In this document: piece by piece, positions 21,958 to 36,961 of the stretch | Position numbering within the stretch: position 1 is the first letter of the stretch | Layout: each line of letters opens with the position of its first letter | Assembly: GCF_024502345.1 (NCBI RefSeq) | Contig: NZ_JALDNN010000003.1 | From: Escherichia coli | Lineage (GTDB): Bacteria; Pseudomonadota; Gammaproteobacteria; Enterobacterales; Enterobacteriaceae | Length of the DNA stretch: 64,000 bases | Strand: one strand, 5' to 3' | Translations under genes and position numbers: made by a program | The notes under the pieces: model-generated | The model's input: only the letters and a program-made list of their open reading frames with translations | Database searches by the model: none | What the model was told of the DNA's origin: nothing

Positions 21958-22034
21958 TTTTGATTTCTTTATTTACAGGAATGAACCCGTGTAGTATAAC
22001 GTATATGAGCTTGAATTTATTGCTCCCACATTTC

Positions 22035-22150
22035 AAGTAACTTTATAAAAGTTACTTTGCGCGTTAAGCGCATATTCAGCCGTGAAAAGCGGCCAGCTTT
22101 CTAAAGCTGCAAGGCACCACCGGCAAAATGTCACCTTTGTCGCTGGTGCC
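22035..22150. promoter_or_regulatory. Cluster of five consecutive hairpins, opening with a 23-bp perfect palindrome; candidate ssDNA promoter, ssi or origin-like structured element
   Basis: Inverted repeats read directly: 22035-22057 AAGTAACTTT-ata-AAAGTTACTT; 22058-22072 TGCGC-gttaa-GCGCA; 22079-22093 GCCG-tgaaaag-CGGC; 22094-22109 CAGCTTT-ct-AAAGCTG; 22113-22150 GGCACCA...TGGTGCC. The function is inferred. Confidence 0.4.
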
Positions 22151-22354
22151 TTTCCCATGTCTGAAAAAGGACAATCGAATTTACCAAATCGTAACTAACT
22201 TAGCTCTTAATTGAGCTATTTTCGTTGCGTACTTCTAATGCCAGAAAGTATAAATCAGGCGGTTCATAGCTTACGGGAGATGAATGACAGGCTTTGCCTT
22301 TGTGTTGGGATATTTAATGATTCCTTCCTTCTTACTATATATAGGTGACCCCAA

Positions 22355-23230: not shown

Positions 23231-23288
23231 TCCTGTTAAGGGGAAACCCTGACGGGGCTTCTCTTTGCTTAAATTGAGGAGAGAAGTA

Positions 23289-23666: not shown

Positions 23667-23726
23667 CATTTAAACCACCCAAAAGGGGAGAAATCCCTTC
23701 ATGGGAGTTCTCCCTTAGGAGATCCC

Positions 23727-26133: not shown

Positions 26134-26203
26134 TATTATTAACCCTATCGGGAAATCTTTCCCGACGGGGAGGTTTTCCCATTTCTAAATCTGGAGAAAA
26201 CCT

Positions 26204-27331: not shown

Positions 27332-27408
27332 TTTAGTCTTGTAAAAATATCCCCAGATGGGTACTTCACCATCTGGGTGAGTACCCTTTATCAAATAAAG
27401 GTACTCAA

Positions 27409-29421
27409 ATGAAATTTGATTTAAAATCTTCACCACGCCATATTCAACGCCTGACGAATATAGCCAGCGTGATAAGCGGTATAAATGGGATTTATGTAAT
27501 TATTGACAATAAGGTGAGTACACCTTATTTCAACACCCAAAACAATGTCTGTGTTTTACCTAACGGTGATTATAGCGATGAGAGATTTGTCAAGCTAATT
27601 GAAGGATTCATATGTCATGAAGCAGGACACGGTCGTTATACAGAGCATGAAGTATACCGTGAAGCTTTTGTTGGAGAATTGATCAATGCAGATGGCTTCA
27701 TCAGTATTGATGATGACTTGAAGGCTGATTTTCAAAACCTAAAACAAAAGCAAAAAGCATATGCTCGTGCTTGTCGACTAAAAGGACTTATTAATCTTTT
27801 TGATGATGTCCAGATGGAAGAGAAGACGGGTATTGATTATCAGGAGGCAAAAAAACGCCTCGCGGTGACTTATGCCTTGATGGTTGAAGCTGGGCGAATG
27901 ACGGTTGATATTTCTTCAACCCCTCAAAACCCGGTTCAGTTTATTGAAATGTACCTGCTTAATACATTGCGGGTTAACGTTCTCCAACAAGAAGGGCATA
28001 AAGAAACGCTTGACCCATTTTTCGATTATGCAAAGAAAATCCTTGCACCTGTAACTTCAGAAGTCGATGAGATCATTCATCAAGCTCTAAGTTGCAAAAG
28101 TACGCAAAATTGCGATTCTCTGGCGCGTAAAACTCTGGCTCTTTTAGAGCGTTTAAGGGATGAAGCAAAAGAGAAACAGCAAGAAGAGGAGCAGTCGAAA
28201 GACCCGCATGACGATACAGATGAATCATCTGGCTCTGAGAATGAACCTGATACCGAACCCAATGGTGATAGCCAGGGTGAAGGGGATGGTGATAAAGAAG
28301 GTCAAGGCGATGATTCTGGTGATGGTAAGGCGCCTGCGGAAGGTAATGGGTTACCGGACCAATCCGGAGGGGATGAACAAAATGCTGAGAACTCTAACGG
28401 CGAACCTGATGGTGAGTCTGAAGGTGATGAATCGGCGACCCCCGGCTCGGATGATGCTGACTCGACACCTTCCCTAAACGACAGTTCAAATGGAAATTCT
28501 TCTGATGGGGAAAGTAACTTTTCTCCTGAACAGTGGGATATGCTTGCCAAATTGCTGGATGATTTTTTAAACAGTGATGAGGAAAGCGAGGATTTTCATG
28601 AGGTTCTTGCAAAAGAGATCTCCGTAATTGCTGCCAGTGTGTCGGATGAGGTTAAAGCTGAATTTGGTGCAAGTGAGTGGGATGTTCCAGATTTGAACAT
28701 TGATCTGAATGTCTACAATGAAGCATTAAATATCAGCCAGACCCTTGGGGCAGATTTATCTGTTTTACAGCAGGTAAAAATGCGTGGTCAATTTAAAACC
28801 CGTGATAGAGGCTTGTCATTCGATATTAATCGACTGATCCAGTCTCCGATGGGTGTTAGGGATGTATTTCGGTCACAAAGCGAATCTAAAAACCGGGGCC
28901 ACGTCGGCTTGGTCATTGTTCGTGATATTTCAGGTTCAATGAGTCTGGAACACCGTTATATCCATGCAATTAAGACTGACCTTGCATTAACTCTGGCAAT
29001 TGAAGCTATTTCAAAAATGCATGTTGCTAATGTGATTTATCCGTTTGTAGACAAAGATTTTGAAGTTATCAAAACGTTTGATGAAAACGCGGAAGAGAAA
29101 CTTTCAAAATTCTCACTTGGCTGCAAGGGCAATAATACCCCAACGGGTTCTGCATTAAATGCTGCTTTAGAGTTGTTACTTGAAAGCCAGTTTGACAGGA
29201 AAATTGTTTTCCTTATTACTGATGGTTATCCGACTGAGTCGGCTTACACCATTAATGATGTTTTTTCAGTTGCTGAAAGTAACGGCATTGAAATCGCTGG
29301 TGTTGGTATTAAAACTGATGTGTTGATGGGTTTTAATGAGGGCACCTTCGTAAATGTTGATGATATTTCTTTATTGCCGAATGAGGTCAGTAAATTAGTA
29401 CATCAAATTCTATCTAATTAA
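27409..29421 (+). CDS. vWA-domain protein with long acidic linker (CobT-like partner of the AAA+ ATPase)
   Basis: C-terminal MIDAS-like motif VIVRDISGSMS followed by FLITDGYPTE; a central D/E/G/S-rich low-complexity region of roughly 120 aa. Confidence 0.55.
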   Translation: MKFDLKSSPRHIQRLTNIASVISGINGIYVIIDNKVSTPYFNTQNNVCVLPNGDYSDERFVKLIEGFICHEAGHGRYTEHEVYREAFVGELINADGFISIDDDLKADFQNLKQKQKAYARACRLKGLINLFDDVQMEEKTGIDYQEAKKRLAVTYALMVEAGRMTVDISSTPQNPVQFIEMYLLNTLRVNVLQQEGHKETLDPFFDYAKKILAPVTSEVDEIIHQALSCKSTQNCDSLARKTLALLERLRDEAKEKQQEEEQSKDPHDDTDESSGSENEPDTEPNGDSQGEGDGDKEGQGDDSGDGKAPAEGNGLPDQSGGDEQNAENSNGEPDGESEGDESATPGSDDADSTPSLNDSSNGNSSDGESNFSPEQWDMLAKLLDDFLNSDEESEDFHEVLAKEISVIAASVSDEVKAEFGASEWDVPDLNIDLNVYNEALNISQTLGADLSVLQQVKMRGQFKTRDRGLSFDINRLIQSPMGVRDVFRSQSESKNRGHVGLVIVRDISGSMSLEHRYIHAIKTDLALTLAIEAISKMHVANVIYPFVDKDFEVIKTFDENAEEKLSKFSLGCKGNNTPTGSALNAALELLLESQFDRKIVFLITDGYPTESAYTINDVFSVAESNGIEIAGVGIKTDVLMGFNEGTFVNVDDISLLPNEVSKLVHQILSN

Positions 29422-29492
29422 ACTCTACCCAATCGGGGCAAAACGACGCCCGGTTGGGTCGCTTTGCTCCCTGAAGGATTAAGGAGCAATAT

Positions 29493-29714
29493 ATGACTCA
29501 GATAAAGACTTACCGTGTCGAGTATGAAAAAGTCGGGACGATGCATCGTGTCCGTATTTTTGGTCGCATGGGTGAAATTGTCAAAAGTGAATTGCCAGAA
29601 GAAAGAATTCTCCGGGATGTATCTATACCAGAGGGTAATGGAGAAATGGCAACGTCAATGGTTGATGGTTTTATCCAGCGTCTTGAAAATATCGGCTTCA
29701 AGACTGAAGCGTAA
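29493..29714 (+). CDS. Small hypothetical protein
   Basis: 73-aa ORF with a leader hairpin and an SD-sequestering hairpin upstream. Confidence 0.3.
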   Translation: MTQIKTYRVEYEKVGTMHRVRIFGRMGEIVKSELPEERILRDVSIPEGNGEMATSMVDGFIQRLENIGFKTEA

Positions 29715-29807
29715 TTGTTGAGGGCTCTTGTGGGCCCTCATTCTTAGATTCTGCGTTGTGGGTTTCTCCCTGTTTTCTGCATCGCAGAGGGCATTGAGAA
29801 ACCCACA

Positions 29808-31061
29808 ATGCCAGATAAGAGAGAACAAATGACTTATGCATCCCAGGCTGTTAAGCGTACACCACATGAAGTCACTGACCACTTTATAAAAATGGTTCAC
29901 GCTCGTATAGCGGAAGTATCAGGCTGGCGCTATGTATTCGATAGAATACCGGCATTTAAAGACGCTTGTGATAAAGCACCTGGCCAGGTTCCTTGCCCAT
30001 TTAGTGGGGTCGGGAAATCAAAGTTCCGGTTCCGTAAAAAGGACCTCTTTACCGGTTGTGCCATTCACAATGATTTTCCAGTGAATGCATTTTGTGACGG
30101 TATTGATGTATTGGCAGAGTACTACAAGCTGAGCAAGACCCAGACTTGTAAGAAGATCCTGACTGATTTCTTTGGGATGGATTTGTACGCTCCATTAACT
30201 GATGCGGATCTCGAAAGTGAACGTCGTTATAAATCAACAGTTCGTGCAACCGAAACGCTTGACAGCGATGAAGTTGAAAAACGAGGGCGTAAACTTGAAG
30301 TGATATATCACTATACCGGTGAAATCAAACCTGAGAGCCCTGTGTGGGTGTATCTCCGAAATCGAGGTCTTAATCGAGTTCTGAGCAACCTTCCCAAGGA
30401 TTTAGGTCTGAACAAACGACTTTACTACATGGATAAGTCACTGGAAAAACCCACGATTTACCCGGGAATGATCGCAATTTATCGCGATACCCGTGGGCGT
30501 CCTCTGACAATCCACAGAACGTTCGTCGAGTTAAATGGTGATAAGGCACATGTTGAGAATCCGAAACTGATGATGAAACCGCCTGCCGATATGACTGGCG
30601 GCTCAATTCAGCTGTACGATCCACACTTCAATCCAGGTACCCGTACCTGGACGTTAGGTGTGGCTGAAGGCATAGAAAACGCGCTGTCAGTTACTGAAGC
30701 GACTTCAACACCGTGCTGGGCCGCGAGCTCTGCCTGGTGCCTTGAAAACGTTGAAGTGCCGGATAGTCTCCTGCCTCCCCCTGGTGTGAAAGTAATACAG
30801 TTTTACATCTGGGCGGATAAGGATCTTGTGAATACAAAAGGCACTTCCCCGGGAATGGAGTCAGCTAAACGACTTCAGGAACGTATGAAAGAGTTTTTTG
30901 CAAAGCGATATCCCACTTCAGAGCTGACAATTAAAGTCTTTGAACCTGATTTCGATATTCCTGTAGGGAAGAAAGGAGTCGACTGGAACGATGTACTAAA
31001 ATTAACAGGACCGGATGGATTCCCCGTAAAATGGGCTCCTGAATGTCTTGCTCAGCTTTAA
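29808..31061 (+). CDS. Toprim-domain DNA primase-like protein with N-terminal zinc-binding region
   Basis: Cys/His cluster PCPFSGVGKSKF...TGCAIHNDFPVNAFCDG, a Toprim-like acidic motif TLGVAEGIENALSV and a downstream WADKD segment. Confidence 0.55.
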   Translation: MPDKREQMTYASQAVKRTPHEVTDHFIKMVHARIAEVSGWRYVFDRIPAFKDACDKAPGQVPCPFSGVGKSKFRFRKKDLFTGCAIHNDFPVNAFCDGIDVLAEYYKLSKTQTCKKILTDFFGMDLYAPLTDADLESERRYKSTVRATETLDSDEVEKRGRKLEVIYHYTGEIKPESPVWVYLRNRGLNRVLSNLPKDLGLNKRLYYMDKSLEKPTIYPGMIAIYRDTRGRPLTIHRTFVELNGDKAHVENPKLMMKPPADMTGGSIQLYDPHFNPGTRTWTLGVAEGIENALSVTEATSTPCWAASSAWCLENVEVPDSLLPPPGVKVIQFYIWADKDLVNTKGTSPGMESAKRLQERMKEFFAKRYPTSELTIKVFEPDFDIPVGKKGVDWNDVLKLTGPDGFPVKWAPECLAQL

Positions 31062-31335
31062 ATCCGATAACTCCCCCGCCTTTTCAGGCCGGGGGGGGTT
31101 ATCTCTTTAGTGTTTATTTACGTTAAATCCTAAACAGATAATCCGATTTCCTTCGTGAAAATCACCTGTTATTCAGGTTTTTTTTACGGCTGAGATGCTT
31201 GCTCAGTTTAATAAATGTGCGATACAGCTGGCTACGGTCGGTTGTATGACATGGTATATCCATAAAACTTAAAACCCCTGACGGGAGTATTACCGTTAGG
31301 GTGATGCTCATCGTTAAATATCGGAGAGCATTGTT

Positions 31336-31860: not shown

Positions 31861-31937
31861 AGATAACACATATTTTTACTACATCCCTGATGGCACCTCC
31901 CATCGGGGTGGCCCTCAGAGTTGAATCTGGAGGTCTT

Positions 31938-32816: not shown

Positions 32817-32832
32817 TTAACATTACCCATCC

Positions 32833-32869
32833 GGGGATTACATCCCTGATGGGTGTAATCCCATTTTTT
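32833..32869 (+). terminator. Intercistronic hairpin with U-run between paralogs 1 and 2 (attenuator-like; an alternative pairing is possible)
   Basis: GGGGATTACA (32833-32842) pairs with TGTAATCCC (32854-32862) and is followed by T6; alternatively CCCATC (32826-32831) pairs with GATGGG (32848-32853). Confidence 0.45.
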
Positions 32870-32886
32870 ATTTAAGTGAGGATTAC

Positions 32887-33822
32887 ATGAAAATTATTGA
32901 GAAAATCATTAATGCATTTCTGATATCGCGTAAACATTCAGTGAAGGTCAGTAATGTTATCTGCTTGAGTGGCACCGACGGTAAATTTACTGGAATATGC
33001 TGTGACGCCGATGTTTCATTTGATTTTCTTTATTCGTATGCCCCCGCATACAGTTCAACATTTTTAGATATCCCGTTTCCTGGGTTTGAAGACCAGGACA
33101 TCGCGGATTGTGTTAAATGTCAGTTAGATGTAGTTAAAAATAAACGGAATCGGTCTTTTTTAATTGACCATATTAGATTTCCAGTTTCCTCAAGGGAAGG
33201 ATTCACTCTGACACGCGGTGATAGTTACGACGTGACTGAATGTGAATATAATAAGGAACGATTGCTACATCTGACCCGACAAGGACGTTTTTGTGAAGAC
33301 TATCTCACGTTCAAGGATGGCCTGAGTTCCTTCTTTTCATTTGTGAATTTCGAATTACATGAAATAGTGAAGGAAGGTATACGTTTGGCACTTGATGTTT
33401 TAAACAAGATTACATCTGATCAACCAGACCGTCTTATAAAAGACTTTAAGTATCATGATTGCTTCGGCAGTTATAATGTACAAATATTTTCTAAGGGTCT
33501 GCCAGTTGATATCCTTGAAACGATGATTGCACCTGATAGGTTGTTGTCTAACTTGTCAGGTAGTCGTCAGATTATGAAAAATGCAAGTCGCTATCTTAAA
33601 GGCTTTGCCCTCAGTAATCGTGTTTACATGAAATACGGATGGCGTTTAGCAGATGTTGACACATCTGACTATGCGAAAGTTATGTCAGATAGAGAAATGC
33701 ATGCCAGAGATGATCTTAAGGCGTTTTGCAGTGTCTTTTTTAAAGAGTGTTTCGCATCCGGAAAATATGAATACGAAGCATACCTGAGTGAAAGACAACA
33801 CGCGATTCGTAACGGGTATTAA
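32887..33822 (+). CDS. Member 2 of the tandem paralog family
   Basis: N-terminus MKIIEKIINAFL parallels MKAIYKIIEAML of member 3; the C-terminal segment NASRYLKGFALSNRVYMKYGW parallels NHVNRYLSGRVMKRRIYAVIEA. Confidence 0.45.
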   Translation: MKIIEKIINAFLISRKHSVKVSNVICLSGTDGKFTGICCDADVSFDFLYSYAPAYSSTFLDIPFPGFEDQDIADCVKCQLDVVKNKRNRSFLIDHIRFPVSSREGFTLTRGDSYDVTECEYNKERLLHLTRQGRFCEDYLTFKDGLSSFFSFVNFELHEIVKEGIRLALDVLNKITSDQPDRLIKDFKYHDCFGSYNVQIFSKGLPVDILETMIAPDRLLSNLSGSRQIMKNASRYLKGFALSNRVYMKYGWRLADVDTSDYAKVMSDREMHARDDLKAFCSVFFKECFASGKYEYEAYLSERQHAIRNGY

Positions 33823-33899
33823 TACTTATTATCAACTTATCTAATCCCTGAGGGAATTCTTCCCTTGGAGAGGATTCCCTCTTAACCGAGGGCTACAAA

Positions 33900-34820
33900 A
33901 TGAAAGCGATTTATAAAATAATTGAAGCGATGCTGGTGAAAATGGGCTTTGAAGGTGCCGTGATCCAAAGTGTCAATCTGGAAACGGGTGTGATTCAGAG
34001 TCTAGTTGTTAAGGCTGATATTCCTGTCCGGACTTTAATGCCGCATTTAAGGCGATATCTGCGCGATTGTGAGCCTTTATGGGGACATGACGTGGATTAC
34101 CACCCTATAGCACAATATTGCTCAGGAGCTGCGTTGTTGAAGGCTGGGCCGGTCACTCTTGAAACCTTTCGGTTTGAGGTTTCAGTGTCAACTGCTCACC
34201 TGCGGCTTGTGGATATTGAGCCGGACTGTCTAAATGAGGGTGTGAACCGTGAAAAACTGGAGTATGTATATTACCGCTCCAGCAATGCAGACAAGGATCT
34301 AATACTTGGTATGGTTGAAAAAGGACATAATTTTATCAATCATCTGCATGAACTTTTACGCTCGCGCTTATCAACGGCTTTGCCGCTGATTTTCGCAGTT
34401 ACAGAAAAGATTGCGGAGAGTTCAGTTCCACAAGTAGTCACCAGCTTTTTCAGTGTTGACCATCAAATCAATGCCCAGATAGTAGTCGAACCTGTACCCG
34501 TTTCAGTCGCAGACCAGATAATTTCTGCTGACTGGAATGTGTGTAGTGTTTCAGGAGCGGATAAGTTCCTGAACCATGTTAATCGTTATCTGTCGGGTAG
34601 GGTGATGAAGCGGCGTATTTACGCTGTTATAGAAGCTTGCGACGGTGGATCTTTATCCCTCAATGCGAACTTAGGTTGCTTTACATCACCTCTTCTCGTA
34701 ACTGAGTATAAAATGGTTCAGTCACACTCTTCATCGCTTTATCGAAAGGCTATAAATAACTCGCTTAAGCAAGTTAATTCGTATGCTCCAGAGCATTCAG
34801 ATGACCTGCTTTCTATGTAA
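33900..34820 (+). CDS. Member 3 of the tandem paralog family
   Basis: See member 2; similar length of 306 aa. Confidence 0.45.
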   Translation: MKAIYKIIEAMLVKMGFEGAVIQSVNLETGVIQSLVVKADIPVRTLMPHLRRYLRDCEPLWGHDVDYHPIAQYCSGAALLKAGPVTLETFRFEVSVSTAHLRLVDIEPDCLNEGVNREKLEYVYYRSSNADKDLILGMVEKGHNFINHLHELLRSRLSTALPLIFAVTEKIAESSVPQVVTSFFSVDHQINAQIVVEPVPVSVADQIISADWNVCSVSGADKFLNHVNRYLSGRVMKRRIYAVIEACDGGSLSLNANLGCFTSPLLVTEYKMVQSHSSSLYRKAINNSLKQVNSYAPEHSDDLLSM

Positions 34821-34892
34821 TTAATTTTACCCATTGGGGAAGCGTATTCCCCGTGGGGGTTGCTTCCTTTCTTCATTAAAGAGGAAGTGAAT

Positions 34893-35828
34893 ATGTTTAA
34901 TGAAAGTGATGATAAAAACTTTGTTAGTGCAATGCTTAAATGTCAACTTGGCCTGAATATAAGCCAAGAGGATATTACAATATATGACAAAGAAAATCAT
35001 TTTGAACAACTTTCTTTTAAAGCAAATGTGGCGCTTGATGATTTGTTATTTTATCTGGATTTATATATATCAGAATTGATTAAGCATAATGCGCCGTATT
35101 CTGAAACTGAAGTCCTTCGGACTAAAATCAAATACTTTCTTAAAGTATATGAAAAGTCTGGTTTTCAGAACATAAGAATTCGCGGTTATCATAACGCGCA
35201 CAGCACTATAGATATTGTCGATATCGCATCATTAATATTGGCGGGGTCTGTACCGGAGTCTGAACATGATTCAATAGATCCTGTTTTAAGAAAGGAAATC
35301 TATCAAAATCGCATGAGTGTTGAGGGTAAAGTTCTCATTGCCCGTTTTGCACTTAAGCAATTTTTCCATTCTGATTTTGGTGATTTCATCTTAGAGTTCG
35401 AGAAAAGTATCTCCAAGTGTTTGAATACTTCTCTCCAGATAATTAAATCTGTAAAGAACTCATTTAACCGTTTAGGTCAATATCAATATCAGCGTCGTGT
35501 AAAAGATGACCTGACTTTGCATCTTGATTTGAATACAGATGAATACCCGGCCTGTATGCCAGACCTTTACATCGGTTTCAAGGAGTCTGAAGGGACGACG
35601 GGAGTGTATCGCGATGATGAAAAAATCATTCGTCTTTATACTGGCGTTAGTTCCGGAAAGGATGTTCCTGTAATGATGACCGTTCGATTCACTGGCTGTG
35701 ACGGGAGTGTTTTGTCTGAATCATCGCACGGTACTTTCTGTTCCGTGGGACCTACCGGCCGAGTGCAGGTTTGTGACAGAGTTGCGTTGGTCCAAGAAGC
35801 GGTCGAAGAGTTACGGGATGTTGTTTAA
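34893..35828 (+). CDS. Member 4 of the tandem paralog family
   Basis: Clear paralogy with member 5: VEGKVLIARFALKQFFHSDFGDFI versus VDGQVLIARFALEKFWDTHFIGLI, and YQRRVKDDLTLHLDL versus YTRRITDELSLHISL. Confidence 0.5.
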   Translation: MFNESDDKNFVSAMLKCQLGLNISQEDITIYDKENHFEQLSFKANVALDDLLFYLDLYISELIKHNAPYSETEVLRTKIKYFLKVYEKSGFQNIRIRGYHNAHSTIDIVDIASLILAGSVPESEHDSIDPVLRKEIYQNRMSVEGKVLIARFALKQFFHSDFGDFILEFEKSISKCLNTSLQIIKSVKNSFNRLGQYQYQRRVKDDLTLHLDLNTDEYPACMPDLYIGFKESEGTTGVYRDDEKIIRLYTGVSSGKDVPVMMTVRFTGCDGSVLSESSHGTFCSVGPTGRVQVCDRVALVQEAVEELRDVV

Positions 35829-36004
35829 CCCTTGTTTTTTACCTCTTCATTCCAAAAAGTAACTTTGTTCTACCAAATGACCGCGCTACCTATTCTGATC
35901 AACTTGCAGGAAAGAATGGCGCAGTAGTACATATTTTTAATCCACCCACTGGGGAAGTCGCTCCCCTGTGGGGCACTTCCTTTAATAATCCTGAGGAAGT
36001 GAAG

Positions 36005-36961
36005 ATGACTAATTCTACTGATAACCAGAACTACGTTCGTGCAGTACTGGCAGGCATTGGTATTGATTTTGATGAAACAGAGATGTTTATCAGTGTCTCT
36101 CATTGCCAGAGCGACGAAGTTTCGTTTACATGCAGTATATCAGCCAGTGAGTTAAGAGAATCTGCGGGGCATTATGTGGATACTCTTAATGATACCCAAC
36201 TGGCTGGCCTGGATGCGGATGCACTCAAGAAGCGACTGGTTTACTTCCTTGAGGTTTTCGACCTGGTTTCCGGTCAATATCTGGATATTTCCGGTAAACA
36301 TTTCGCGACCAGCCGCTTTGAATACGACGATGTCTGTAGTGAGATCCTGAGTAACTCTGCGGACAGCGCCCAGCCAGGTGGCTATGATCGTGAAGAGTAC
36401 AAAAGACTGATGGAAGTTGATGGTCAGGTTTTAATCGCCCGATTTGCACTGGAAAAATTCTGGGATACGCATTTTATTGGGCTTATCAACTATGTATCAG
36501 ATGAAATAACATCCGGGCTTTATGAGGCTTATCGCACGTTCAGTGATATAAACATGGCCGGTTATACATTTAGTGAGTATTCATATACGCGTCGTATTAC
36601 CGACGAACTTAGTTTGCATATTTCACTTAAAGAGGACGATTTCGAAGAGCAATTAACCGATTGTTATATGGATGAAACAACGCTGCCGTCTGGCAAGGTG
36701 GTTTTACGCCGTAATAATGAATCAATTATTGGGATTTATGAAGGATATGCTTCAAAATCTTACTTTCCTATGGTTGCTAATGTTAGAGTCCTTGATACAG
36801 ATGGTGAAGTTGTTACTGAACTTTACCAAGGGGTGAATGTATCAGAATTAGCTGGTGGTCGGATTAAAATCCATGACCGTCAGGAATTAATTTCTGAGGT
36901 GTTCGCTAACTTACGTGAATTCATCCCAGCATCAGAGGATAAAATCTTTGATGCGGCATGA
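36005..36961 (+). CDS. Member 5 of the tandem paralog family
   Basis: See member 4; start set at the ATG after the SD GAGGAAG. Confidence 0.5.
   Translation: MTNSTDNQNYVRAVLAGIGIDFDETEMFISVSHCQSDEVSFTCSISASELRESAGHYVDTLNDTQLAGLDADALKKRLVYFLEVFDLVSGQYLDISGKHFATSRFEYDDVCSEILSNSADSAQPGGYDREEYKRLMEVDGQVLIARFALEKFWDTHFIGLINYVSDEITSGLYEAYRTFSDINMAGYTFSEYSYTRRITDELSLHISLKEDDFEEQLTDCYMDETTLPSGKVVLRRNNESIIGIYEGYASKSYFPMVANVRVLDTDGEVVTELYQGVNVSELAGGRIKIHDRQELISEVFANLREFIPASEDKIFDAA

What the first reader, a model, noticed from the sequence alone, without database searches (positions are those of the whole stretch)
29755..29810. Primase start codon sits at the 3' foot of a long imperfect hairpin
GTGGGTTTCTC (29757-29767) pairs with GAGAAACCCAC (29795-29805), with an inner stem TCTGC/GCAGA, ending 2 nt before the ATG at 29808. 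A second GC hairpin (29720-29739, GAGGGC...GCCCTC) lies just upstream. This is the most extreme of the leader structures and could tightly gate primase translation.
Basis: seen in the sequence. Interest (0 to 1): 0.45.

Follow-up and report, generated by a model that had tools for sequence, protein, structure and literature searches.

The report
Conserved hairpin leader of plasmid primase-like gene

Summary
The window is plasmid pHCM1 (IncHI1, S. Typhi). The hairpin is real, but 1 nt off the stated coordinates and larger: 29750-29815, 29 bp, -42.2 kcal/mol, z = -8.2. It is the most stable 70-nt fold in the 64 kb window.

The ATG at 29808 lies inside the stem and is probably not the start. It is out of frame or stopped in three related lineages. 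The conserved start is ATG 29829, with Shine-Dalgarno sequence (SD) AAGAGAG at 29817-29823.

The hairpin (P2) is 86-94% identical between lineages whose flanking genes are 55-77% identical. A probably homologous hairpin precedes orthologous toprim genes in IncC plasmids, Marinobacter, Halomonas, Alcanivorax, Pseudomonas and 24 metagenome contigs.

All share one leader: GC hairpin P0, then an anti-SD strand, then P2, then the SD. P2 covaries strongly in the IncC-type group. The anti-SD:SD helix (P1) has lineage-specific complementary flanks. The sense strand folds better than the antisense in 23 of 23 lineages, which points to RNA.

Best reading: a new cis-acting mRNA leader that gates toprim translation. 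The trigger is unknown; RNase III or a sequence-specific protein are candidates. In pHCM1 itself P1 is only 5 bp, so occlusion there is modest.

No Rfam family or paper describes it.

A P0 + SD-hairpin module also precedes at least 11 neighbouring genes.

The parts
29493..29714 (+). Upstream 73-aa hypothetical ORF. Its stop codon lies 5 nt before P0, so a terminating ribosome would not reach P1 or P2.
   Evidence: ORF list; annotated as a hypothetical protein in pHCM1; no Pfam or NCBIfam match.
29719..29740 (+). P0: GC-rich hairpin (UGAGGGCUC / GGGCCCUCA, loop UUGU). Its structure is conserved while its sequence is replaced in pPMK1 (GUGCCAC/GUGGCAC). A comparable GC hairpin precedes the leader in all 23 lineages examined.
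   Evidence: pair probabilities 0.67-1.0. Not called as a terminator by the scan.
29742..29746 (+). P1 5' strand (anti-SD, UCUUA). It pairs with 29816-29820. The corresponding strand is 8-14 nt long in IncC-type relatives.
   Evidence: MFE structures; pair probability about 0.37 in pHCM1; P1 strands in relatives.
29750..29815 (+). P2: the long hairpin of the finding. Lower stem 29750-29768 / 29796-29815 with bulged C29812; internal loop 29769-70 / 29794-95; upper stem 29771-29780 / 29784-29793; loop 29781-29783.
   Evidence: MFE -42.2, z -8.2; top fold of the window; 86-94% nt identity across IncHI lineages versus 55-77% in flanking CDS; covariance-model hits.
29808..29810 (+). ATG annotated as the start in pHCM1. 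It is base-paired inside P2, has no SD, and is not a conserved in-frame start. Probably a mis-called start.
   Evidence: Alignment A1; annotations of L002-L004; an AUG at this position is absent in Marinobacter-type leaders.
29816..29823 (+). P1 3' strand (UAAGA, 29816-29820) overlapping the Shine-Dalgarno-like AAGAGAG (29817-29823). The equivalent is AGGAGAG in pPMK1 and AAGGAGA in IncC.
   Evidence: Unpaired probability of G29819-G29821 is 0.21-0.24.
29829..31061 (+). Toprim / DUF7146 protein gene (410 aa from the conserved start), a putative primase. It is the orthologue of vcrx122 of IncC pVCR94.
   Evidence: Pfam DUF7146 and Toprim_3; orthologues additionally carry Zn_Ribbon_Prim; conserved start; vcrx122 coordinates.

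Best explanation
The hairpin (P2) is the gene-specific core of a conserved three-helix leader in the polycistronic mRNA just upstream of the toprim (primase-like) gene.

The order is: P0 (GC hairpin), the anti-SD strand, P2, then the SD strand and AUG 29829. P2 folds first and essentially irreversibly. It brings the pyrimidine-rich anti-SD strand next to the Shine-Dalgarno sequence, so the two pair (P1) and ribosome binding is reduced. The toprim protein would therefore be made at a low or conditional level relative to its operon neighbours.

The primary sequence of the P2 lower stem is far better conserved than a mere clamp would need. P2 is therefore probably also recognised by a trans-acting factor that relieves or enforces the block. 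RNase III cleavage of the 29-bp duplex is the simplest candidate; a sequence-specific protein such as the toprim protein itself is another.

Shown here: the structure, its conservation, its strand, and its position relative to the SD. Inferred: the effect on translation and the identity of any trigger.
For: 1. P2 is exceptionally stable and unique in the window.

2. It is the best-conserved stretch locally.
- IncHI1 vs IncHI2: 94% identity, against 72-77% for flanking CDS and 54% at third codon positions.
- IncHI1 vs pPMK1: 86%, against 55-59% for flanks, with toprim proteins only 44% identical.
- Blastn finds only the hairpin in about 470 pNDM-MAR-type plasmids.

3. In protein-fished loci, the most stable fold of the whole ~7 kb locus lies immediately 5' of the toprim gene. 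This holds in Photorhabdus, K. grimontii, IncC, Edwardsiella, Marinobacter and Halomonas. Covariance models add Alcanivorax and a Pseudomonas plasmid.

4. Among the metagenome contigs fished with the DNA motif, 24 carry a toprim homologue downstream on the same strand. Its tblastn match starts 9-58 nt after the motif.

5. P2 covaries in the IncC-type group. 96% of cells are paired against 84 +/- 1% in shuffles (0 of 500). There are 50 double-sided changes against 16 +/- 3.5. Slid controls reach at most 59% (similar).

6. P1 always includes the SD and has lineage-specific complementary flanks, 8-14 bp. Cognate flank duplexes average -14.0 kcal/mol against -9.6 for non-cognate, with 0 of 10,000 permutations as low.

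7. The sense strand is more stable than the antisense in 23 of 23 lineages (mean difference -11.3 kcal/mol; 2-7 G.U pairs against 0-2).

8. In IncC pVCR94 the orthologue vcrx122 is AcaCD-dependent, but the nearest AcaCD promoter is 4 kb upstream. The leader is therefore transcribed inside an operon mRNA (PMC4207636 Table S3 and Dataset S1).

9. P2 sits in the loop of P1 with short junctions in every lineage, although a 274-nt intergenic region is free just downstream.
Against: - In pHCM1 itself P1 is only 5 bp with pair probability about 0.37. The predicted SD accessibility of the toprim gene is mid-range among genes of the same array. Strong occlusion is demonstrated only for IncC-type relatives.
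- Within the IncHI-type group there is too little variation to show covariation: 20 of 31 pairs are invariant and there is 1 compensatory change.
- Homology of the IncHI-type and IncC-type hairpins rests on weak reciprocal model scores (13-28 bits, E about 1e-5 to 0.3). Their pairing registers differ by one position.
- The 11+11-nt core of the metagenome sequences was fixed by the search pattern, so its invariance there is not evidence.
- The permutation test does not correct for relatedness of the sequences.
- No experimental data on translation, processing or protein binding were found.
Confidence: 0.55

Rival explanations
1. P2 is mainly an RNase III processing and mRNA-stability site. Cleavage of the long duplex would separate the toprim cistron from upstream genes. 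P0 would then serve as a 3' stabiliser of the upstream fragment, and the SD would be freed or the downstream mRNA destabilised. This overlaps with the best explanation as one possible trigger.
For: - There are 29 bp of nearly continuous dsRNA with small internal loops. By established knowledge, this matches the size of E. coli RNase III substrates such as T7 early-region sites and the adhE, rnc and pnp leaders.
- A GC hairpin (P0) is always present just upstream.
- RNase III is present in all host taxa concerned (general knowledge).
- Rockhopper split vcrx122-125 from the upstream operon, although no AcaCD-dependent promoter was mapped between them.
Against: - No cleavage data exist.
- RNase III has little sequence specificity, so it does not explain the near-invariant lower stem.
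- vcrx122 RNA level is only modestly lower than vcrx121 in pVCR94.
Confidence: 0.2
2. P2 acts as single-stranded DNA. It would be a sense-strand hairpin serving as a priming signal (ssi) or binding site for the adjacent primase-like protein, during complementary-strand synthesis after conjugative transfer or on the lagging strand.
For: - It lies adjacent to a primase-like gene whose orthologues have Zn_Ribbon_Prim + Toprim.
- The primary sequence of the lower stem is strongly conserved, as expected for protein recognition.
- The strand asymmetry is compatible with one specific DNA strand folding.
- Known precedents exist: RSF1010 ssiA/ssiB recognised by RepB', and the G4 and phiX174 ssi signals (established knowledge).
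Against: - P2 is always embedded in the loop of the SD-sequestering helix, with junctions of 0-10 nt, although free intergenic space exists nearby.
- Up to 6 of 27 pairs are G.U, which is well tolerated in RNA but poor in DNA.
- The pHCM1 protein has lost the detectable zinc ribbon while P2 is retained.
- The transferred-strand polarity was not established.
Confidence: 0.12
3. One reading: the true start codon is ATG 29808 and is occluded in the 3' foot of the hairpin.
For: In pHCM1 the ATG at 29808 is in frame and is the start annotated by PGAP. It is base-paired inside P2.
Against: - It is out of frame in IncHI2 and Citrobacter IncHI1B, and stopped after 7 codons in pPMK1.
- All three are annotated from the second ATG.
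- There is no SD upstream of 29808.
- An AUG at that position is absent in several IncC-type leaders.
- Orthologous N-termini align from 29829.
Confidence: 0.05
4. The site is a double-stranded DNA operator (a palindrome bound by a dimeric regulator), or a transcription terminator/attenuator.
For: It is a long inverted repeat in an intergenic region. P0 in IncHI2 is followed by a U-rich tract.
Against: - The symmetry is broken by G.U positions that would be A.C on the other strand. The sense fold beats the antisense in 23 of 23 lineages.
- Compensatory changes preserve pairing rather than half-site sequence.
- No U-tract follows P2, and the scan calls no terminator there.
- vcrx122 is still expressed from the upstream promoter.
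Confidence: 0.04
5. The hairpin is an Frpo-type single-stranded DNA promoter, or a dispersed mobile palindrome with no local function.
For: Conjugative plasmids carry hairpin ssDNA promoters in leading regions (PMC11541004). The hairpin is long.
Against: - No -35/-10-like site was found on the relevant strand.
- An Frpo must fold in the template (antisense) strand, which folds much worse here.
- P2 is 66 nt; the F-plasmid Frpo is recalled as roughly 300 nt (from memory, not checked here).
- There is a single copy per replicon, always at the same place relative to the toprim gene.
Confidence: 0.03

Closest known systems
SD-sequestering mRNA leaders activated by processing (E. coli adhE 5' UTR and lambda N leader with RNase III; type I toxin mRNAs hok, tisB, aapA1)
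   Same: - A cis structure pairs the Shine-Dalgarno sequence with an upstream complementary stretch.
- A long duplex is a plausible RNase III substrate.
- Repression would be relieved by cleavage or refolding (compare PMC5416894, listed).
   Different: - Here a 29-bp sequence-conserved hairpin is inserted in the loop of the SD helix.
- A separate GC hairpin, P0, precedes it.
- The element is intercistronic in a long operon of conjugative plasmids.
- No processing or antisense partner is known.
Phage T7 early-region RNase III sites
   Same: Both are intercistronic hairpins of about 60 nt with internal loops inside polycistronic mRNA. In T7, a hairpin remains as a 3' stabiliser of the upstream message.
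   Different: No sequence similarity was found (no phage hits). Cleavage is untested. The conserved SD pairing (P1) is not a feature of T7 sites.
Autogenous translational operators of replication proteins (T4 gp32, gp43, RegA; f1 gene V/gene II)
   Same: A structured, sequence-conserved RNA next to the SD of a nucleic-acid-binding replication protein. Sequence conservation exceeds what pairing alone needs.
   Different: Binding by the toprim protein is pure inference. The known operators are much shorter hairpins or pseudoknots.
Single-strand initiation signals and ssDNA promoters of plasmids (RSF1010 ssiA/ssiB, F Frpo, ColIb-P9 ssi)
   Same: A strand-specific hairpin on a conjugative plasmid, next to a primase-type gene.
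   Different: - No -35/-10 elements are present.
- The sense strand, not the template strand, folds best.
- P2 is tightly embedded in an SD-sequestering helix.
- It is not located in a known leading region or oriV.
Intercistronic stabiliser hairpins (REP/BIME-type, malE-malF)
   Same: P0-like GC hairpins sit at the 3' end of almost every gene of the array.
   Different: The sequences are not repeats of one another. Each is paired with an SD-occluding hairpin. P2 is single copy.

Membership tests
Cis-acting SD-sequestering mRNA leader | The structure forms on the sense (mRNA) strand | tested here: met
   The sense fold is more stable than the antisense in 23 of 23 lineages, with a mean difference of -11.3 kcal/mol and 2-7 G.U pairs against 0-2.
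Cis-acting SD-sequestering mRNA leader | The SD is base-paired to an upstream complementary strand (in relatives) | tested here: met
   P1 is 8-14 bp and includes GGAG in IncC-type leaders, with lineage-specific flanks. Cognate flank duplexes beat non-cognate ones, 0 of 10,000 permutations.
Cis-acting SD-sequestering mRNA leader | The SD is base-paired in the window's own leader (pHCM1) | tested here: inconclusive
   P1 is only 5 bp (29742-46 / 29816-20) with pair probability about 0.37. The SD G residues are about 77% paired overall. Accessibility is mid-range among neighbouring genes.
Cis-acting SD-sequestering mRNA leader | Helices are supported by covariation | tested here: met
   IncC-type P2: 96% of cells paired against 84% in shuffles, and 50 against 16 double-sided changes. 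The IncHI-type alone is uninformative.
Cis-acting SD-sequestering mRNA leader | Mutations in the stem change translation | not testable with these tools
   This needs reporter fusions.
RNase III processing site | About two helical turns (>= 20 bp) of near-continuous dsRNA | tested here: met
   29 bp within 66 nt, with one bulge and one 2x2 internal loop. Relatives have 23-29 bp.
RNase III processing site | rnc-dependent cleavage in vivo or in vitro | not testable with these tools
   No data were found in the papers searched.
Intrinsic (Rho-independent) terminator | A GC-rich stem immediately followed by a U-tract | tested here: not met
   P2 is followed by UAAGAGAGAAC. The scan reports no terminator at P0 or P2. 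IncC-type P0 has no U-tract.
Frpo/ssi-type single-stranded DNA promoter | A hairpin on the template strand that reconstitutes -35 and -10 elements | tested here: not met
   There is no promoter-like site on the + strand at 29000-30300. The antisense (template) strand folds 3-23 kcal/mol worse. Frpo features are taken from PMC11541004.
Primase priming signal (ssi) in ssDNA | A specific primase binds and primes on the folded single strand | not testable with these tools
   This requires biochemistry, and the transferred-strand polarity was not established.
RNA thermometer | An SD helix of marginal stability that melts at 37-42 C | tested here: not met
   P2 MFE is -51.0 kcal/mol at 25 C, -42.2 at 37 C and -38.4 at 42 C.
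Any curated Rfam family | A covariance-model match at or near the gathering score | tested here: not met
   Only sub-threshold hits to miRNA-precursor models (24-28 bits against gathering scores of 66-100), for the window and for 5 related loci.
Dispersed palindromic repeat (REP/ERIC/MITE) | Many copies per genome at unrelated sites | tested here: not met
   One copy in the window. The median is 1 place per genome in 402 E. coli genomes, with 418 of 426 places on plasmids.
Zn-ribbon + TOPRIM primase (for the downstream gene) | An N-terminal primase zinc ribbon plus a Toprim catalytic domain | tested here: inconclusive
   The pHCM1 protein matches DUF7146 and Toprim_3 only. Orthologues in IncC, Marinobacter, Pseudomonas and Azotobacter also match Zn_Ribbon_Prim. 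No PDB or NCBIfam relative was found. Primase activity is untested.

The most novel reading that the evidence does not exclude
Two linked readings remain open.

First, P2 may be a sequence-specific recognition hairpin for the toprim protein. It could be an autogenous translational operator that mimics, or doubles as, the enzyme's priming signal on the sense strand.

Second, P2 sits inside a previously undescribed operon-wide system. In the backbone arrays of the MOBH-relaxase conjugative plasmids sampled here (IncHI1, IncHI2, pNDM-MAR-type, IncC), most genes examined are preceded by a bipartite P0 + SD-occluding hairpin module. This would amount to a plasmid-encoded layer of per-gene translational gating.
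Probability: 0.2. Interest if true: 0.75.

Novelty: new variant of a known kind. Interest (0 to 1): 0.55.

Why it matters
IncHI1, IncHI2, pNDM-MAR-type and IncC plasmids are principal carriers of multidrug resistance. They underlie MDR typhoid and spread mcr and NDM genes. Most of their backbone genes, and how those genes are regulated, remain uncharacterised.

This hairpin is the most strongly conserved non-coding element found in this part of the backbone. A probably homologous hairpin precedes the same gene in plasmids and integrative elements of marine and soil Gammaproteobacteria. It is absent from Rfam and from the literature searched here.

If it gates a primase-like establishment or replication function, three things follow.
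- It adds a post-transcriptional layer to the known transcriptional circuits (AcaCD; TrhR/TrhY-HtdA).
- It offers a compact, testable RNA-protein or RNA-RNase target.
- It corrects the annotated start codon of a conserved gene.

The repeated P0 + SD-hairpin modules suggest a general design rule for these operons that nobody appears to have described.

Tried and rejected
- **Phage origin.** Megablast of the locus against phage records found nothing. The window is plasmid pHCM1.
- **Known RNA family.** Rfam at permissive E-values gave only sub-threshold miRNA-precursor look-alikes.
- **Repeat family in the window.** Only the two arms themselves match the stem sequence.
- **Terminator or promoter.** The scan finds neither at P0 or P2.
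- **Covariation within the IncHI-type hairpins alone.** There is too little variation.
- **SD accessibility in pHCM1.** The partition-function value for the toprim gene is not exceptional among its neighbours. I therefore do not claim strong occlusion for pHCM1.
- **Joint alignment of the two hairpin types.** A MAFFT alignment of IncHI-type and IncC-type hairpins gives a 1-nt pairing-register conflict. The two groups were analysed separately, and homology is called probable only.
- **A uORF starting at the AUG inside P2.** It is in frame in pHCM1 and IncC, out of frame in IncHI2, a 7-codon ORF in pPMK1, and absent in Marinobacter-type leaders. It was rejected as a conserved feature.
- **Translational coupling to the upstream ORF.** Its stop lies before P0, 27 nt or more from P1.
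- **Identity of the protein.** PDB and NCBIfam searches found no relatives.
- **Literature.** Searches on IncHI/R27, AcaCD/pVCR94, DUF7146, primase leaders and ssDNA promoters found no description of the element.
- **Metagenome pattern scan.** 96 of the 120 loci it returned have no toprim homologue on the stretch held. They were set aside as probably chance palindromes and not examined further.
Full report
**Origin and context.**
Window 29400-31100 is 100% identical to plasmid pHCM1 of Salmonella Typhi CT18 (NC_003384.1, 91515-93215) and to many IncHI1 plasmids. Nothing similar exists in the phage collection.

The finding lies downstream of the Tra2 genes (trhW, trhU, trhN, trhI), in a long same-strand array of mostly hypothetical genes. 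It falls between a 73-aa ORF and a gene annotated 'toprim domain-containing protein'. That protein matches Pfam DUF7146 and Toprim_3.

**The observation.**
The described sequences are present, 1 nt to the right of the stated coordinates. The structure is larger than reported.
- It spans 29750-29815: 66 nt, 29 bp, one bulge, one 2x2 internal loop.
- MFE is -42.2 kcal/mol against -16.6 +/- 3.1 for shuffles (z = -8.2).
- It is the longest inverted repeat of the window.
- It is the most stable 70-nt fold on either strand of all 64 kb.
- The ATG at 29808 is inside the stem, not 2 nt beyond it.
- The upstream GC hairpin is real (29719-29740).

**The start codon.**
Three related lineages are all annotated as starting at the ATG equivalent to 29829. 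They are IncHI2, a Citrobacter IncHI1B plasmid, and the pNDM-MAR-type Klebsiella plasmid pPMK1.

The alignment shows a 1-nt indel between the two ATGs in IncHI2 and Citrobacter. This puts the first ATG out of frame. In pPMK1 the first ATG meets a stop after seven codons.

The second ATG is preceded by AAGAGAG in pHCM1 and AGGAGAG in pPMK1. Orthologous N-termini align from it. The true start is therefore most probably 29829, and the hairpin ends 14 nt upstream of it.

**Conservation.**
A 401-nt query centred on the hairpin matched 1,970 plasmid records. In roughly 470 Klebsiella pNDM-MAR-type plasmids only the 83 nt containing the hairpin aligned, at about 85% identity. The toprim proteins of those plasmids are only 44% identical to the pHCM1 protein.

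| Comparison | P2 identity | Flanking CDS identity |
|---|---|---|
| IncHI1 vs IncHI2 | 94% | 72-77% (54% at third codon positions) |
| IncHI1 vs pPMK1 | 86% | 55-59% |

The 5' arm of the lower stem is invariant in all seven IncHI-type lineages aligned, including one from Photorhabdus. In contrast, the neighbouring GC hairpin keeps its structure but changes its sequence completely.

P2 is single copy per replicon. It occurs in 402 of 5,426 complete E. coli genomes, almost always on plasmids.

**Wider distribution.**
A protein-based scan of species-representative genomes returned 44 loci with toprim homologues. In nine of them the most stable fold of the whole ~7 kb locus lies immediately 5' of the toprim gene. 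The nine comprise Photorhabdus (two), K. grimontii, Edwardsiella, Marinobacter (two), Halomonas and an unclassified gammaproteobacterial MAG; the ninth locus was not checked further. The separately fetched IncC, IncHI2 and pPMK1 loci show the same. The hairpins share a motif: GUCGGGGUUUCC ... GGAAGCCUCGAUG, compared with GUUGUGGGUUUCUC ... GAGAAACCCACAAUG in IncHI.

A covariance model of the IncHI-type hairpin finds the IncC-type ones at E about 2e-5 to 4e-4, on the sense strand, when filters are off. The reverse model finds the IncHI-type ones at 13-25 bits. It also detects new members in Alcanivorax and a Pseudomonas plasmid. I regard the two types as probably homologous, though their pairing registers differ by one position.

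More distant toprim genes (Aeromonas, Azotobacter, Sulfuritalea, Hahellaceae) lack the hairpin.

A DNA-pattern scan of metagenomes returned 120 loci. In 24 of them a toprim homologue (33-97% identity to the references) lies just downstream on the same strand; its tblastn match starts 9-58 nt after the hairpin motif.

**Anatomy of the leader.**
All 23 distinct leaders fold the same way:
- P0, a GC-rich hairpin;
- a pyrimidine-rich strand;
- P2, the long hairpin;
- a purine-rich strand containing the SD, followed by AUG.

The two flanking strands pair (P1), so the SD sits in a helix closed by P2. In IncC-type leaders P1 is 8-14 bp, and its sequence outside the GGAG core differs between lineages in a complementary way. 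Examples are CUCCUUGGC/GCUAAGGAG, GUUUCCCCUGUUA/UAACAGGAGAAAC and CGAAGUUUCUCCAGG/CCUGGAGGUACUUCG.

Cognate flanks pair better than non-cognate ones: -14.0 against -9.6 kcal/mol, with 0 of 10,000 permutations as low. This test does not correct for relatedness of the sequences.

P2 covaries strongly in this group. 96% of cells are paired against 84 +/- 1% in shuffles. There are 50 double-sided changes against 16. Slid controls reach at most 59% (confirmed on a P2-only alignment). The pairs outside the 11+11 nt fixed by the search pattern carry most of this signal.

**Which strand folds.**
In 23 of 23 lineages the sense strand folds more stably than the antisense. The mean difference is -11.3 kcal/mol, with 2-7 G.U pairs against 0-2. 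This excludes a simple duplex-DNA palindrome and an Frpo-type promoter, which must fold in the template strand. It favours RNA.

In IncC pVCR94 the orthologue is vcrx122. It is AcaCD-dependent, yet the nearest AcaCD-dependent promoter mapped in that study is 4 kb upstream (vcrx114). The leader is therefore transcribed within an operon mRNA (PMC4207636, Table S3 and Dataset S1).

**What holds for pHCM1 itself.**
- P2 forms with probability about 1.0.
- P1 is only 5 bp (UCUUA 29742-46 with UAAGA 29816-20), with probability about 0.37.
- The SD guanines are about 77% paired overall.
- Predicted SD accessibility is mid-range among genes of the array.
- IncHI-type sequences alone give no covariation.

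For this plasmid, then, the evidence for function is conservation and homology of architecture, not a demonstrated tight block.

**Mechanism.**
The best-supported reading is a cis-acting mRNA leader that lowers or conditions translation of the toprim gene by SD sequestration. P2 acts as the clamp.

P0 and P1 drift freely in sequence while the P2 lower stem is nearly frozen. P2 is therefore probably also read by a trans-acting factor.
- RNase III is the simplest candidate. P2 is a 29-bp duplex, and P0 is well placed as a 3' stabiliser of the upstream fragment.
- A sequence-specific protein, possibly the toprim protein itself, is a second candidate.
- A role as a sense-strand ssDNA priming signal cannot be excluded. 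It is disfavoured because P2 is invariably embedded in the loop of the SD helix, although a 274-nt intergenic region lies just downstream. The many G.U pairs also argue against it.

Terminator, thermometer, operator, Frpo and mobile-repeat readings each failed a defining test.

**The gene.**
'Primase' is an inference. Orthologues carry Zn_Ribbon_Prim + DUF7146 + Toprim_3, the layout of zinc-ribbon/TOPRIM primases. The pHCM1 protein gives no zinc-ribbon match. Only one cysteine is invariant in the family alignment. No solved-structure or NCBIfam relative was found.

**An unexpected wider pattern.**
Twelve intergenic regions of the array between 23.2 and 36.0 kb show a bipartite design, counting the toprim leader itself. 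A GC hairpin of the form CCC..GGGG-loop-CCCC..GGG is directly followed by a hairpin whose 3' arm contains the SD. In 11 of the 12 short (non-toprim) intergenic regions tested, the SD core is paired in the MFE.

The same modules precede neighbouring genes in IncC, pPMK1 and IncHI2, with different sequences. The toprim leader is this module with P2 inserted in the small loop.

**Known or new.**
No Rfam family matches. None of the papers found describes the element. It works like known SD-sequestering leaders, but it is a new motif with an unusual clamped three-helix layout. I rate it a new variant of a known kind, with interest 0.55.

Noticed in passing
window 23231-23288, 23667-23726, 26134-26203, 27332-27408, 29422-29492, 31265-31335, 31861-31937, 32817-32886, 33823-33899, 34821-34892, 35934-36004: Almost every short intergenic region of the same-strand gene array has the same bipartite design. 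A GC-rich two-tier hairpin (CCC..GGGG-loop-CCCC..GGG) is directly followed by a hairpin whose 5' arm is an anti-SD and whose 3' arm holds the SD, ending 3-8 nt before the AUG (z -3.4 to -6.7). The same modules, with different sequences, precede neighbouring genes in IncC (L007), pPMK1 (L002) and IncHI2 (L003). This looks like an undescribed operon-wide intercistronic module.
   Followed up: partly
window 29808-29831: The pHCM1 RefSeq annotation starts the toprim gene at ATG 29808 (417 aa). Comparative evidence indicates ATG 29829 (410 aa), so the deposited start is probably 7 codons too long.
   Followed up: yes
window 29829-31061: The IncHI-type toprim protein gives no Zn_Ribbon_Prim match and keeps only one invariant cysteine. 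IncC, Marinobacter, Pseudomonas and Azotobacter orthologues have a clear primase zinc ribbon. The zinc-binding domain may have degenerated in the IncHI lineage, which raises doubt about primase activity there.
   Followed up: partly
window 31062-31335: The 274-nt intergenic region downstream of the toprim gene is extremely structured (MFE -109.6, z -10.2). It holds a G/C-run hairpin (CCCCCGCC...GGCCGGGGGGGG), a long A/T-rich hairpin and several others. The equivalent IncHI2 hairpin (L003 3985-4046) scored 18.9 bits with the P2 model. Its function was not examined.
   Followed up: no
window 21958-22354: The 397-nt intergenic region after trhI folds well beyond shuffles (z -5.1) and contains the 17-bp inverted repeat 22111-22152 (AAGGCACCACCGGCAAA / TTTGTCGCTGGTGCCTT). 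It could be a promoter or regulatory region for the downstream array.
   Followed up: no
window 32887-34820 and 34860-36961: Among the five consecutive ~310-aa hypothetical genes, two adjacent pairs are distant paralogues. 32887/33900 share 27% identity over 101 aa (E 5e-8). 34860/35999 share 28% over 314 aa (E 2e-39). This indicates old tandem duplications.
   Followed up: partly
window 59396-63920: The last ~5 kb of the window is G+C-rich and holds most of the other very stable local folds, plus a 19-bp near-perfect palindrome at 59423-59466 inside an ORF. It probably belongs to a different, acquired module.
   Followed up: no
L007 1317-1365 (IncC) and equivalents in L055, L061: In IncC-type leaders the 5' arm of P0 (for example GCCGGGGAG) resembles the SD strand (GCUAAGGAG), and its 3' arm resembles the anti-SD strand. 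P0 looks like a duplicate of the P1 helix and could in principle exchange partners with it. This is based on reading the sequences and was not tested.
   Followed up: no
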